IMG/VR virus record: IMGVR_UViG_3300044475_000063
Location: 34,392 to 98,391 of that record
Reading direction: 5' to 3' (one strand)
DNA: 64,000 nt
Source: a virus
Made by a program: the position numbers and the translations under genes. The stretch's first letter is position 1. Each line of letters opens with the position of its first letter. Of this stretch, positions 56,144-57,711 are shown piece after piece. The notes below the pieces were generated by a model. The model made no database searches and was not told the origin of the DNA. It saw only the letters and a list, made by a program, of their open reading frames with translations.

Positions 56144-56289
56144 AGAATTAGCGAAGGCAGATAGCCATGAATGAAAGCGCATGCGCAAGTAGTCATGCTG
56201 GCATACTGGAAGTAGCTAAAGCAAAGCCGCTGATGCGTTATGAGGAATTGCGCCACACAGTTCAAAACTGCGGCATGTGGTAAGATTAT

Positions 56290-56518
56290 GGGCCTGTGGC
56301 TGAGAGGAAAAGCACTCCTAATAATGGAAGGAGACAGGTAAAACTGATTTTCAAGTCGAAAGTTTTGCATGGTACACGGTTTGCAGAAGCACCTATAGCG
56401 GCCTGATTCAGGTGGCGGTTAAACAGCAAGGGAAGCGCGTTTCCAAGCTATGCAAAAGCTAGTAGTAATGCACTAGTACATGAAAATTACATGGGTTCAA
56501 TTCCCATCAGGTCCACCA
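56290..56518 (+). ncRNA. 229-nt element with tRNA-Ala/tmRNA-type ends (G3:U70, A73, CCA)
   Basis: 5' GGGCCTG pairs with 3' CAGGTCC, including a G:U at position 3:70. T arm ATGGG-TTCAATT-CCCAT, then A-CCA. A D-arm-like GCT-GAGAGGAAA-AGC. About 155 nt lie between the arms. Confidence 0.4.
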
Positions 56519-56951
56519 GTTGCAAGAATAGTAGTTGTAAGAGCCAATGCGAGACCCTGCGCGATCAACCTGCCCGGAGCAGGTTCCGTAAGGAAGGGGT
56601 GGCAGACCGGAAAGACGGTCACTGAATAGCAGTAGTGACGAGAGGACGTGGCAACCGCACGTTTGGCGAAGTTTGCTAATTCGGGACAGGCAACTGAAAC
56701 ATTGGAGTCATGACCAATGGAACCAAGAGCTAAAACCTGATTACGTGGTTGACTAATTTTGAATAGTTGGGCCGATACCGCAGGGGCGCTCGGGCCAATA
56801 AACGCCCCAGCATAAGCGCCGTCCTCCTTTCCCCAGCTATCGCTAGTGGGCGCAACAAGTAATTAGGCGTGATTATGCAGAGCCAAGTTAAGGGCGCATA
56901 GCGTGGAAGCCGCTAGTAGTTTTGTCTCGCAAGAGACGCCACAAGAAAGCC

Positions 56952-57023
56952 GATTTGTGAGATACGTGGTATATCAGCGCCCTCATAAGATGAAGTCCCT
57001 TGGTTCGATTCCGAGGACAAGTC
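56952..57023 (+). ncRNA. degenerate tRNA-like element with a CUCAUAA (CAU) loop, enclosed by an outer helix
   Basis: Acceptor GATTTGT/ACAAGTC, perfect D stem GATA/TATC, 6-bp T stem CCTTGG/CCGAGG with loop TTCGATT. Only 3 of 5 anticodon stem pairs form. The outer helix is 56938..56945/57030..57037. Confidence 0.4.
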
Positions 57024-57125
57024 GGCCTCCTTGTGGCCCCTACTATAAAACTGTAGGAATATAGATGGTGCATAATTCAATTGACGAATTGAATGTATGC
57101 CGAATGGTTCACGAAACGAGCCATT

Positions 57126-57254
57126 ACATATCATCGGCAGCACGGAAGGACGTGGGTAAGCGCTGCAAATAGTCGGCAGAGAGATTGCGGCAATCCTAGG
57201 TGATTTGCTCTCATCATGCCAAGTTAGGTATCAAGCCCTAGCCCGATGATCTGT
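57126..57254 (+). ncRNA. structured RNA module M (copy 2)
   Basis: Closing helix ACATATCATCGG/CCGATGATCTGT. The 19-nt and 21-nt cores are identical to the minus-strand copy at 45002..45194. Confidence 0.5.
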
Positions 57255-57584
57255 AATAAAGATTGGATGATGCCGGTCGTTACACGCCTGACTCTCGTTA
57301 TAGAGTCACTACACGCATGCTGATTGATAGGGATGGATACGTAGAACTGGACGCAGGGGCTATCCATAGAGTCTAGGCCTTGACCTAGAGCGCAAACTCC
57401 CCTAACTACGATATTAGTCAGCAGTCGTGTGGTGCAATGCGGAGGCTGATCCGCGAAGCGTTCTATGAGTCCGATTGATTACCGGGATACTCGCAGGTTG
57501 GCTAGGCTTCGCGGGCCTAAACTTTAGCGCAGAATAATGCCAACAAAGCCAGAGTTCAGCACTGGCCACCACTTCAGTTTCATG

Positions 57585-57661
57585 CCAAGAGTAGCTCAAC
57601 GGTTAGAGCGACGGATTAATAACCCGGATTATGCTGGTTCGATTCCAGCCTCGCGGCACCA
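57585..57661 (+). ncRNA. degenerate tRNA-like element (good D and T arms, mismatched acceptor and anticodon stems)
   Basis: TAGCTCAACGGTTAGAGC forms the D arm and GCTGG-TTCGATT-CCAGC the T arm. The acceptor CCAAGAG/CTCGCGG pairs at 5 of 7 positions. It ends ...CACCA. Confidence 0.35.
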
Positions 57662-57682
57662 GTTCTTTCCCGCAGCACCTTT

Positions 57683-57711
57683 CGCCCTGAATCCTATCAG
57701 GGCGTTTTTTT
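57683..57711 (+). terminator. strong intrinsic terminator immediately upstream of the terminase genes
   Basis: CGCCCTGA-ATCCTA-TCAGGGCG followed by TTTTTTT. Confidence 0.75.

What the first reader, a model, noticed from the sequence alone, without database searches (positions are those of the whole stretch)
56144..57711. A 1.57-kb ORF-free, tRNA-flanked ornate RNA locus forms the leader of the late (terminase) operon
Two canonical tRNAs (Arg-UCU and Gly-UCC) sit at one end of this locus and a strong terminator (57683..57711) at the other. In between are about 1,570 nt with no credible ORF; there are only short, mutually overlapping ORFs on both strands. The tract is dense in helices, for example AACCTGC-CCGGA-GCAGGTT, GACCG-GAAAGA-CGGTC, GTCACT...AGTGAC and CCGCGAAG (57451..57458)/CTTCGCGG (57506..57513). 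It also holds three tRNA-like elements and two blocks shared with unit 1. Very large structured RNAs next to tRNA genes in phages and prophages are the known context of GOLLD and ROOL RNAs, but I cannot recognise either family by eye. A second possibility follows from the terminator sitting immediately before terS. The RNA could act in cis as a processive antitermination leader (put/Q-type logic) controlling late genes.
Basis: partly seen in the sequence, partly recalled or inferred. Interest (0 to 1): 0.85.

Follow-up and report, generated by a model that had tools for sequence, protein, structure and literature searches.

The report
Phage array of tRNA-like RNA genes
The ORF-free stretch before the terminase genes is a string of separate small RNA genes (two normal tRNAs plus several tRNA-shaped or stem-closed RNAs), and one of them belongs to a structured RNA family that I found in hundreds of phage contigs but not in Rfam.

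Summary
Window 56144-57711 has no credible ORF. It lies between one promoter-like site (55872-55900) and one strong terminator (57683-57711), and it is rich in RNA features. It is not GOLLD, ROOL or any other Rfam 15 family apart from tRNA. It does not look like one giant RNA; it is a modular array. After tRNA-Arg(UCU) and tRNA-Gly(UCC) come blocks A and B (shared at 95% with the neighbouring prophage) and a 229-nt tRNA-like RNA with the Ala/tmRNA acceptor identity set (G3:U70, A73, CCA). Homologs of this RNA occur in Ralstonia phage RSP15 and in two very large (306- and 424-kb) viral contigs. Next come stem-closed modules E, C and D, a non-canonical 'Ile-AAU' tRNA, and the terminator. Module C (57125-57255) has the order of parts of a tRNA, with its anticodon arm replaced by a variable domain. 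Its family has over 200 members in viral and metagenome contigs and strong covariation. It occurs in many gene contexts, including a second copy in this prophage's leftward early operon (45003-45193, minus strand). A syntenic relative carries a genuine two-piece tmRNA in the same array. Function is inferred: co-transcribed, processed small RNAs, probably tRNA mimics. The cis-antitermination idea is neither supported nor excluded.

The parts
55872..55900 (+). Sigma-70-like promoter (TTGACT-17-CATCAT), the probable start of the RNA array transcript
   Evidence: It is the only plus-strand promoter-like site in 55300-57900. The same arrangement (TTGACA-17-CATGAT) lies upstream of the tRNAs in the syntenic relative L126. 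Function is inferred.
55986..56061 (+). Canonical tRNA-Arg(UCU), CCA encoded
   Evidence: ARAGORN; Rfam tRNA 42.9 bits.
56070..56143 (+). Canonical tRNA-Gly(UCC), CCA encoded
   Evidence: ARAGORN; Rfam tRNA 61.9 bits.
56136..56285 (+). Block A: conserved non-coding module shared with unit 1 (6171-6321), partly with L126 (3009-3079) and, for its 5' part, with L262/L207
   Evidence: 94.7% identity to unit 1 and 93% to L126. In the L262/L207 homolog the ATG is replaced by CTG, in-frame stops appear, and the helix CAUGA/UCAUG changes to CCUGA/UCAGG in a compensatory way.
56290..56518 (+). 229-nt tRNA-like RNA. It has a 7-bp acceptor stem GGGCCUG/CAGGUCC with G3:U70, A73 and CCA, a D-like arm, an anticodon-position hairpin with a 9-nt loop, an insert domain of about 130 nt, and a canonical T arm
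   Evidence: Sub-threshold Rfam tmRNA hit on the 3' 120 nt of the element, 56399-56518, which uses an alternative internal 5' acceptor strand (25.6 bits). Homologs in RSP15, L052, L036 and L048. 22 of 41 predicted pairs show compensatory changes among the 5 sequences.
56519..56760 (+). Unassigned spacer with hairpins (AACCTGC-CCGGA-GCAGGTT 56567-56585; GACCG-GAAAGA-CGGTC 56605-56620; GTCACT..AGTGAC 56618-56639). Together with the 229-nt RNA it forms a 475-nt insertion relative to unit 1
   Evidence: Absent from unit 1, where blocks A and B abut. No homolog was found.
56761..56943 (+). Block B: conserved non-coding module shared with unit 1 (6320-6502) and L126 (3277-3430). It includes the hairpin GUCUC-GCAA-GAGAC
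   Evidence: 95.7% identity to unit 1 and 88% to L126. The tetraloop is GCAA here and GGAA in L126, both of GNRA type. A 1-nt indel between the units breaks the only ATG-initiated ORF.
56939..57036 (+). Module E: long-range stem CCACAAGAAAGCCGA / UCGGCCUCCUUGUGG enclosing a degenerate tRNA-like element (ARAGORN 'Met-CAU' 56952-57024, with a UUCGAUU T loop)
   Evidence: Coordinates; ARAGORN at a lowered threshold. The same stem occurs in L126. Unit 1 has a different but complementary pair, CCACAUAAAACCAGCC / GGUUGGUUUUAUGUGG.
57104..57124 (+). P0 hairpin AUGGUUC-ACGAAAC-GAGCCAU just 5' of module C
   Evidence: Coordinates. Hairpins at the same position with different, complementary stems occur in L262 (CCCUC-ACGAAAC-GAGGG), L126 and L154/L156.
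57125..57255 (+). Module C: member of a widespread phage RNA family. P1 closing stem 57126-57137/57243-57254; P2 hairpin GCACG-GAAGGA-CGUG(G) at 57140-57154 (the 5th pair, G-C in the family, is a G-G mismatch here); a variable domain; P3 hairpin with loop UAUCAAGC at 57224-57241
   Evidence: Covariance model R1 scores it 70.1 bits, E 2e-17. On an unselected family set, 93% of cells are paired against 72% in shuffles, and 17 of 20 pairs have changes on both sides.
57284..57433 (+). Module D: P0 hairpin GACUCU-CGUUAU-AGAGUC (57290-57307) and closing stem CUACACG-CAU-GCUGAUUG (57309-57326) / UAGUCAGC-AGU-CGUGUGG (57415-57432)
   Evidence: Homologs in L134 and 7 IMG/VR contigs have the same closing strands, a variable interior and P0 stems that differ but stay complementary.
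57439..57514 (+).
   Evidence: Coordinates. A hairpin with the same GCUGA loop and different stems follows the other module C copy and L137/L154. It is limited to a small subfamily.
57584..57661 (+). Non-canonical tRNA-like gene ('Ile-AAU'): 8-bp acceptor stem with two internal mismatches, weak anticodon stem, ACCA encoded
   Evidence: ARAGORN; Rfam tRNA 47.2 bits with mismatch marks in the acceptor and anticodon stems.
57683..57711 (+). Intrinsic terminator (8-bp stem with 6 G-C pairs, then T7), the end of the RNA array
   Evidence: It is the only strong plus-strand terminator-like site in 55300-57900. It is conserved at 88% in L126, at 4521-4577.
45003..45193 (-). Second copy of module C in the same prophage, inside a 590-nt ORF-free gap of the leftward early operon
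   Evidence: R1 scores it 70 bits, E 2.5e-17. No Rfam family matches there.

Best explanation
The locus is a polycistronic island of small RNA genes in a temperate phage of a (probably beta-)proteobacterium. I infer that it is transcribed from the promoter at 55872-55900 to the terminator at 57683-57711 and cut into separate stable RNAs.

Two products are ordinary tRNAs, Arg-UCU and Gly-UCC, which read AGA and GGA/GGG. The others are tRNA-derived or tRNA-shaped RNAs that cannot decode:
- a 229-nt RNA that keeps acceptor, D and T arms and the alanine/tmRNA identity set but has no 7-nt anticodon loop;
- module C, which has the tRNA order of parts (closing stem, 2 nt, D-like hairpin with GG in its loop, variable domain, T-like hairpin with UCRA in its loop, closing strand) but no free CCA end;
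- modules D and E, blocks A and B, and a defective 'Ile-AAU' tRNA.

Shown: absence of ORFs, module boundaries, covariation, independent occurrence of the modules in other phages, and a true two-piece tmRNA in the same slot of a relative. Inferred: co-transcription, processing, and function.

The most likely function of the non-decoding RNAs is tRNA mimicry in trans. They would present a tRNA elbow or acceptor to host or phage proteins that bind tRNA (processing, charging, ribosome-rescue or tRNA-targeting defence factors). The tRNA-like folds could also serve as processing points inside long phage transcripts.
For: - No ORF with any support; candidate small ORFs are broken in homologs.
- One promoter-like site and one strong terminator bound the island on the plus strand, and both are conserved in L126.
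- The relatives are modular. Unit 1 has tRNA-Gly, then A+B contiguous, then E' and a terminator. L126 has three tRNAs, A, a 200-nt different insert, B, E, C, a genuine permuted beta-tmRNA (RF01850, 148 bits) and the terminator. L125 has small ORFs and an RNA ligase in the same slot instead.
- Module C family: the exact 18-mer occurs in 93 IMG/VR loci and in more than 120 metagenome contigs. 98 model hits in the 93 loci are nearly all full length. 93% of cells are paired against 72% in shuffles and 26-41% when the partners are slid, and 17 of 20 pairs have double changes.
- Members lie in varied gene contexts and are mostly co-oriented with flanking genes.
- Where tRNAs are present in a locus they are close: 13 of 22 within 200 nt, and 17 of 17 within 1 kb on the same strand.
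- Some members carry a T arm or a whole tRNA inside the variable domain.
- The 229-nt RNA stands alone behind its own promoter in L052 and lies beside tRNA genes in RSP15.
- The module D family also occurs without module C.
Against: - There are no expression or processing data, so transcript ends and the stability of the products are unknown.
- tRNA mimicry is inferred from the order of helices and loop motifs only. The Rfam tRNA model does not score module C, and the GG and UC loop residues are invariant, so the elbow contact cannot be tested by covariation.
- 70 of 92 module C loci have no tRNA in the fetched DNA.
- Blocks A and B have only three to five homologs, so their structure is poorly constrained.
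- The exact-word search biased the module C set towards one P2 sequence.
- A cis role of the island in reading through the terminator into terS has not been excluded.
Confidence: 0.55

Rival explanations
1. Cis-acting read-through (processive antitermination) leader. One or more modules, above all module C, would fold on the nascent transcript and make RNA polymerase resistant to the 57683 terminator, or to Rho on this long untranslated RNA, so that the late operon is transcribed. This is the logic of HK022 put or of rRNA-operon antitermination.
For: - The island lies between a promoter and a strong terminator directly upstream of terS, and no plus-strand consensus promoter lies between the terminator and terS.
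- The prophage has two module C copies, one in each divergent transcription direction (45003-45193 minus, 57125-57255 plus), as putL/putR and nutL/nutR do.
- L190 and L175 also carry divergent pairs.
- Members are mostly co-oriented with flanking genes.
- TerL is the commonest identifiable large ORF downstream, in roughly 10-13 of 54.
- A 1.8-kb untranslated transcript would need protection from Rho (established knowledge; inference here).
Against: - Canonical terminators are not enriched downstream of module C: 9 of 90 within 300 nt, the same as upstream.
- Downstream genes are diverse.
- Unit 1 has the same tRNA/A/B/terminator/terS layout without module C.
- Some members appear to be stand-alone units: by eye, -10/-35-like hexamers lie directly upstream and a terminator-like hairpin follows (sequences; no scan was run).
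- No Q-, N- or LoaP-like protein was recognised. The upstream 140-aa protein has no Pfam or PHROG hit and no significant structural match.
Confidence: 0.17
2. One large ornate RNA (GOLLD/ROOL-like in kind). The whole 1.6-1.8 kb, or a core made of A+B plus C-D and the 3' part, would fold as a single RNA in which the variable pieces are optional peripheral domains.
For: - Conserved segments keep the same order in unit 2 and L126 (A, B, E, C, 3' segment, terminator) with inserts of variable size between them.
- The left-operon copy shares colinear matches with the right island (C, then a CAGCACYGGCCACCAC segment).
- GOLLD is also found near tRNAs and can contain a tRNA (my own knowledge of Weinberg et al. 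2009, not checked here).
Against: - No Rfam GOLLD, ROOL or other large-RNA model matches at E<=10.
- Every recognisable module is closed by its own local stem and occurs alone elsewhere.
- The 3' extension and module D accompany module C in only about 5-6 of 94 members.
- Canonical tRNAs inside the transcript imply RNase P and 3'-end processing.
- I found no conserved pairing between modules.
Confidence: 0.1
3. Decaying remnants of a former tRNA and tmRNA gene cluster with no present function beyond the two intact tRNAs.
For: The 'Met-CAU' and 'Ile-AAU' elements look like damaged tRNAs. The relative L126 has intact tRNAs and a tmRNA where the window has other sequence. MFE z-scores are unremarkable.
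Against: Modules C and D and the 229-nt RNA are conserved, with compensatory changes, across phages that share no other detectable DNA similarity. Blocks A and B are kept at 95% between two prophages whose neighbouring terminase genes differ.
Confidence: 0.08
4. Hidden small protein genes, for example the 38-aa ORF at 56167-56283 behind a GAAGG Shine-Dalgarno-like motif.
For: Between units 1 and 2, three of the four sense substitutions in the first 25 codons are synonymous third-position changes.
Against: The ORF ends at different places in the two units. It is absent from L126. In L262/L207 the ATG is CTG and in-frame stops follow, and the change is compensatory within a helix. It has no Pfam or PHROG match.
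Confidence: 0.03

Closest known systems
Phage tRNA gene clusters, which can include tmRNA and stable non-tRNA species
   Same: Co-oriented small RNA genes packed between protein-coding blocks. Canonical tRNAs for rarer codons (AGA, GGA) sit at one end. A relative carries tRNA-Leu, Leu and Tyr plus a tmRNA in the same slot.
   Different: Most of the 1.6 kb is not tRNA. It consists of non-decoding, stem-closed modules that tRNA and tmRNA finders and Rfam do not recognise.
tmRNA, including the two-piece (permuted) beta-proteobacterial form, RF01850
   Same: The 229-nt RNA has a tmRNA-like acceptor and T arm ending ..GGUCCACCA, with G3:U70 and A73. L126 has a real permuted tmRNA in the homologous island.
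   Different: The 229-nt RNA has a D arm and an anticodon-position hairpin. It scores below the Rfam threshold (25.6 vs 47 bits) and ARAGORN does not call it. The only frame that is open in all five homologs (APIAA...) ends at different lengths and without the hydrophobic C-terminal tail (such as ALAA) that is usual for tmRNA tags (my knowledge) (sequences). Two homologs lack G3:U70 and CCA.
Bacterial Y RNAs (YrlA, D. radiodurans Yrn1), non-coding RNAs with a tRNA-like domain (Chen et al. 2014, PMC4201824)
   Same: Non-decoding RNAs that combine a long terminal stem with D-like and T-like hairpins. They also occur in phages. In Yrn1, as in module C, the stem formed by the RNA ends occupies the acceptor position.
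   Different: YrlA is circularly permuted relative to tRNA and carries the GNCGAAN0-1G motif of the Ro60-binding helix next to rsr. Module C has a free-sequence closing stem and a T-like loop one nucleotide longer, and no TROVE gene appeared among its neighbours. No Rfam Y RNA model matched.
GOLLD and ROOL large ornate RNAs
   Same: Phage or prophage location, proximity to tRNA genes, and variable regions that can hold a tRNA (context only).
   Different: No match to either covariance model. The window's locus breaks up into independent modules of 100-230 nt.
Lambda PR'-6S RNA-tR' with Q, and HK022 putL/putR
   Same: A promoter, a non-coding transcript and a terminator directly ahead of downstream genes. 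There are two module C copies, one per transcription direction.
   Different: No Q-like protein was recognised. Module C is larger than put (about 130 nt against about 70 nt), tRNA-shaped, and found in many positions without a nearby terminator.

Membership tests
GOLLD (RF01998) / ROOL (RF03087) | Match to the family covariance model (conserved multi-domain core) | tested here: not met
   cmscan of the whole window at gathering threshold, and of 55700-57900 at E<=10, lists neither family. The same holds for 12 loci that carry module C.
GOLLD / ROOL | A single RNA of about 500-800 nt with conserved long-range architecture | tested here: not met
   The modules occur separately in other phages and are inserted or deleted between close relatives.
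tmRNA (229-nt RNA, 56290-56518) | tRNA-like domain: acceptor stem with G3:U70, discriminator A, CCA, and a T arm | tested here: met
   GGGCCUG/CAGGUCC-A-CCA and a GGGUUCAAUUCCC T arm, also present in L052 and L036. RSP15 and L048 lack G3:U70 and CCA.
tmRNA (229-nt RNA) | Score at or above the Rfam/ARAGORN tmRNA threshold | tested here: not met
   RF00023 scores 25.6 bits against a gathering score of 47. ARAGORN calls no tmRNA there even at lowered thresholds.
tmRNA (229-nt RNA) | Conserved tag reading frame with a resume codon and a conserved C-terminal degradation signal | tested here: not met
   The frame GCA CCU AUA GCG GCC is open in all five, but it stops after 5 to 27 codons and ends in IAA, WNR, VSL, KLC or GRE (read from the sequences).
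tmRNA (229-nt RNA) | Pseudoknot ring and SmpB binding | not testable with these tools
   Pseudoknots cannot be predicted or verified here with five sequences.
Canonical tRNA (229-nt RNA, module C, 56952-57024, 57584-57661) | 5-bp anticodon stem with a 7-nt loop (U33, anticodon, R37) and a 7-bp acceptor stem with a free 3' end | tested here: not met
   The 229-nt family has 9-14-nt loops at that position. Module C has a 60-130-nt variable domain and no free CCA. The 'Met' and 'Ile-AAU' elements have mismatched stems.
Y RNA / YrlA | Ro60-binding helix with a conserved motif (GNCGAAN0-1G in YrlA), and a gene next to rsr (TROVE) | tested here: not met
   The P1 sequence is free: all four Watson-Crick pair types appear at 8 of 10 positions. 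No TROVE family appears among the 54+110 neighbouring ORFs scanned. Motif definition from PMC4201824.
Y RNA / YrlA | D-like and T-like hairpins able to form a tRNA elbow | tested here: inconclusive
   The P2 loop GAAGGA contains GG and the P3 loop contains UCRA. These residues are invariant, so no covariation test is possible.
Q-type late antitermination (lambda PR'-tR') | Q-family protein encoded just upstream of the late promoter | tested here: not met
   The 140-aa protein (54951-55373) has no Pfam or PHROG match. Its AlphaFold model (pLDDT 85) has no PDB match with E<0.5.
Q-type / put-type antitermination | Read-through of the downstream terminator depends on the element in cis | not testable with these tools
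   This needs reporter or in vitro transcription assays.
Module C family (defined here, model R1) | P1 closing stem, CA, P2 GCACG-GAAGGA-CGUGC, a variable domain, and P3 with loop U/A-A/U-UCRAGY that abuts the P1 3' strand | tested here: met
   Window 57125-57255 scores 70.1 bits and 45003-45193 (minus) scores 70 bits, both full length.

The most novel reading that the evidence does not exclude
Module C, and perhaps module D and the 229-nt Ala-identity RNA, would be previously undescribed classes of tRNA-shaped phage RNAs with a dedicated activity. One possibility is a protein-independent or Nus-dependent antiterminator or anti-Rho element carried once per transcription direction. The other is a decoy that neutralises host factors that bind or cleave tRNA. 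On this reading the window's island is a toolkit of such RNAs, exchanged between phages as cassettes.
Probability: 0.3. Interest if true: 0.8.

Novelty: new variant of a known kind. Interest (0 to 1): 0.62.

Why it matters
Phage tRNA islands are usually read as codon supplements. Here most of the island consists of conserved RNAs that cannot decode. One of them is a tRNA-shaped family with over 200 members in viral and metagenome contigs that is absent from Rfam 15, that I could not find in the literature by sequence, and that is unannotated in the one cultured phage where I found it. A second RNA keeps the alanine/tmRNA identity set without a tag or an anticodon and is shared with very large phages. 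A relative places a two-piece tmRNA in the same cassette array. Together these suggest that temperate phages trade a repertoire of tRNA mimics. This bears directly on current work on tRNA-targeting defence and ribosome rescue, and it gives defined, testable RNAs, with Acidovorax phage AP1 as a cultured carrier of module C.

Tried and rejected
- GOLLD, ROOL, riboswitches, ribozymes and known sRNAs: Rfam scans at gathering and E-value thresholds on the island, on unit 1's version, on the left-operon copy and on 12 member loci gave only tRNA, sub-threshold tmRNA and chance-level hits.
- Hammerhead: CUGAUG in some P1 strands and CGAAAC in P0 loops recall the hammerhead core. I rejected this because the window has CGAUGAU, position 9 is not A, and no Rfam hammerhead model hits.
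- tmRNA tag in the 229-nt RNA: AEAPIAA* looked attractive in the window, but the stop is not conserved.
- Protein coding: Pfam and PHROGs gave nothing for the ten longest ORFs, and the small ORFs in blocks A and B are broken in homologs.
- Folding energy as evidence of structure: the z-scores were uninformative.
- Searches that led nowhere:
  - Block A and B words in IMG/VR and in metagenomes.
  - A block B word in GTDB genomes, which gave two chance hits.
  - AAACANGCAAGGGAAGCG, which hit an unrelated coding gene.
  - A gapped pattern for the 229-nt family, which recovered only two known members.
  - Most neighbours of the 140-aa protein and of TerS homologs, which lacked the island.
  - blastn of module C against cultured phages, which found only Acidovorax phage AP1.
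- Terminator enrichment downstream of module C: none.
- Naive ORF-strand counts were too noisy in GC-rich contigs, so I replaced them with a GC3-filtered count.
- Q-like fold for the 140-aa protein: no significant match, only weak sigma-factor-like helical hits.
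Full report
**Setting**

The window holds two related, mosaic prophage-like units. Unit 1 (about 1-34.7 kb) has terS at 6696 and terL at 7063. 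Unit 2 (about 35-64 kb) has terS at 57786 and terL at 58361. The finding lies in unit 2, between a 140-aa gene of unknown function (54951-55373) with two small ORFs after it, and terS. Replication genes lie further upstream. A Betaproteobacteria-1 RNA in unit 1 and a beta-type tmRNA in a relative point to a betaproteobacterial host.

**The observation**

- ARAGORN and Rfam find tRNA-Arg(UCU) at 55986-56061 and tRNA-Gly(UCC) at 56070-56143. They also find a third, odd tRNA, 'Ile-AAU', at 57584-57661.
- The terminator at 57683-57711 is the only strong plus-strand terminator-like site in 55300-57900, and the only plus-strand promoter-like site is at 55872-55900.
- Between 56144 and 57711 there are only short, mutually overlapping ORFs, and none matches Pfam or PHROGs.
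- Two blocks are shared with unit 1 at about 95% identity. They are contiguous in unit 1, so unit 2 carries a 475-nt insertion between them.
- Folding-energy z-scores do not mark the region as unusually stable. The case for structure rests on comparison with homologs.

**Not a known large RNA**

Rfam 15 scans find only tRNAs, a sub-threshold tmRNA-like hit at 56399-56518, and chance-level matches. I scanned the whole window at gathering thresholds, and the island, unit 1's version and the left-operon copy at permissive E-values. GOLLD and ROOL are absent.

**The 229-nt RNA (56290-56518)**

A blastn match to Ralstonia phage RSP15 and a word search in IMG/VR gave four homologs. They are RSP15 (next to its tRNA genes), L052 (with its own promoter directly upstream), and contigs of 424 and 306 kb (L036, L048).

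All five share:
- an acceptor stem that differs in sequence but stays paired;
- a D arm;
- a hairpin at the anticodon position with a 9-14-nt A-rich loop;
- a conserved core, GCACCUAUAGCGGCC-[variable hairpin, often with a GNRA loop]-..AAACAGCAAGGGAAGCG..UUCCAAG;
- a canonical T arm.

RNAalifold predicts 41 pairs, and 22 of them show compensatory changes. The window, L052 and L036 have G1-C72, G2-C71, G3:U70, A73 and CCA, which is the alanine/tmRNA identity set. RSP15 and L048 do not. The RNA is not a tmRNA by score, and the only common open frame ends at variable points. It is not a decoding tRNA either.

**A syntenic relative**

The 140-aa protein has only 13 homologs in 5.8 billion proteins. 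One of them led to contig L126, in which the gene is followed by the same promoter type and then by this series:
- tRNA-Leu, tRNA-Leu and tRNA-Tyr;
- part of block A, then 200 nt of unrelated sequence, then block B;
- the same long-range stem that I call module E;
- module C;
- a genuine permuted beta-tmRNA (RF01850 at 148 bits; tag ANDAQFKVAAYA);
- the same terminator, and then a terS like that of unit 1.

Another relative, L125, fills the slot with small ORFs and an RNA ligase and has no tRNAs. The locus is therefore a cassette array whose content changes between close relatives.

**Module C**

A 19-21-nt identity shared by the window, L126 and L135 led to the word GCAGCACGGAAGGACGTG.

The members share this layout:
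- a closing stem, P1, of free sequence;
- two unpaired nucleotides;
- hairpin P2, GCACG-GAAGGA-CGUGC;
- a variable domain of 60-130 nt, sometimes longer, which in some members holds a T arm or a whole tRNA;
- hairpin P3, whose loop resembles a T loop with one extra nucleotide (UAUCAAGC, and variants such as UACUCAAGC and UGUCGAGU);
- the P1 3' strand, which follows P3 directly.

This is the order of parts in a tRNA, with the anticodon arm replaced.

A covariance model (R1) finds 98 hits in the 93 IMG/VR loci, almost all full length. On that set, which I did not select for pairing, 93% of cells pair, against 72% in shuffles and 26-41% when partners are slid. Seventeen of 20 pairs show changes on both sides. 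Because the loci were recovered with an exact word from P2, conservation of P2 is partly by construction. P1 and P3 are not affected by this bias.

In the window, R1 finds 57125-57255 (70.1 bits) and a second copy at 45003-45193 on the minus strand (70 bits). The second copy lies in a 590-nt ORF-free gap of the leftward early operon.

**Context of the module C family**
- TerL is the commonest identifiable large ORF within 2.5 kb downstream. It still accounts for only about a quarter of cases; the rest include portal, RecT, methylases, DnaB and RtcB.
- The first downstream ORFs are diverse.
- Canonical terminators are no more frequent downstream than upstream, 9 of 90 each.
- In GC-rich loci the flanking genes are mostly co-oriented with the module, and few members overlap a GC3-supported ORF.
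- 22 of 92 loci carry tRNAs. Where present they are close and always on the same strand.
- Some loci have tandem or divergent pairs.
- No Rfam family covers any of 12 member loci at module C.
- A full-text search for the conserved words found no paper.
- A large catalogue of viral candidate RNAs exists (PMC10690425). I could not check whether it includes this family.
- One cultured phage, Acidovorax phage AP1, carries an unannotated copy.

**Other modules**
- Module D (57284-57433) has homologs in L134 and in seven IMG/VR contigs. They share the closing strands CUACACG-CAU-GCUGAUUG / CAGUCAGC-AGY-CGUGURG, a variable interior and an upstream hairpin whose stem differs but stays complementary. 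None of these loci has module C.
- Module E is a long-range stem enclosing a degenerate tRNA-like element. Unit 1 has a different but complementary stem at the same place.
- The 5' part of block A has homologs in L262/L207 in which the apparent start codon is lost through a compensatory helix change.
- In block B the tetraloop changes from GCAA to GGAA in L126.
- The hairpins and 3' extensions that accompany module C in the window are limited to a small subfamily.

**Interpretation**

The data fit best an island of independent small RNA genes that is transcribed as one unit and then processed. It holds two decoding tRNAs and several non-decoding, tRNA-derived or tRNA-shaped RNAs. The order of helices in module C and the identity set of the 229-nt RNA make tRNA mimicry the most economical functional guess. 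This is an inference.

The layout is promoter, island, terminator, terS, and the two module C copies point in opposite transcription directions. Against it, module C is not tied to terminators or late operons across its family. Unit 1 has the same layout without module C. The upstream 140-aa protein resembles no known antiterminator.

A single giant RNA is unlikely given how independently the parts occur. Pure decay is excluded for the conserved modules.

**Verdict**

The locus is a new variant of a known kind, a phage tRNA island dominated by non-decoding tRNA-like RNAs. It contains at least one widespread RNA family that is not in Rfam and that I could not find in the literature.

Noticed in passing
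window 45003-45193 (minus strand), within the ORF-free gap 44710-45298: A second full-length copy of module C lies in the leftward early operon, upstream of a 248-aa gene. It is followed by GGUGAAUGCGCAAGCUGAUGCGC and further sequence shared with contig L137.
   Followed up: partly
window 57721-57758: Four GCCGCA direct repeats, spaced 9-13 nt apart, lie between the terminator and the terS start codon. They could be binding sites for a late activator or for TerS (pac).
   Followed up: no
window 1675-1795 (+): Rfam Betaproteobacteria-1 RNA (57.2 bits, above the gathering score) lies in unit 1. It hints at the host lineage.
   Followed up: no
window 5500-6057 (minus strand): In unit 1, an HNH endonuclease gene on the opposite strand sits between the 140-aa gene and tRNA-Gly. 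Unit 2 has two small plus-strand ORFs at that place.
   Followed up: no
L126 3958-4380: A genuine two-piece (permuted) beta-proteobacterial tmRNA, tag ANDAQFKVAAYA, is encoded inside the phage RNA island of a syntenic relative.
   Followed up: partly
L125 7098-8090: A relative has an RNA ligase (PF09414) and many small ORFs, and no tRNAs, in the slot between the 140-aa gene and terS.
   Followed up: no
L001 (Ralstonia phage RSP15) 2113-2487: A near-consensus sigma-70 promoter is followed by an ORF-free domain of about 325 nt closed by a 16-bp stem (2157-2172/2468-2483). It lies directly 5' of RSP15's copy of the 229-nt tRNA-like RNA and is unannotated.
   Followed up: no
window 56144-56152, 56522-56531; unit 1 6316-6325: The linker AAGAAU(U)AG recurs right after the CCA of tRNA-Gly, right after the 229-nt RNA, and at the A/B junction of unit 1. 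It may be a processing site or a microhomology for cassette exchange. The 8-mer alone is not enriched in the window.
   Followed up: partly
L357 2406-2532 (Acidovorax phage AP1, OM049504.1, about 4323-4449 complement): A cultured phage carries an unannotated module C copy (68.8 bits) downstream of its Xre regulator and early genes.
   Followed up: partly
L190 6124-6211 (minus strand): An Rfam DUF3800-VII RNA directly abuts a module C copy. L190 also has a divergent pair of module C copies about 260 nt apart.
   Followed up: no
window 1-64000: The window holds two tandem, mosaic, related prophage-like units. They share patches of 75-98% identity, including the 140-aa gene, the RNA blocks, and the portal and head genes, but their terminases differ.
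   Followed up: partly
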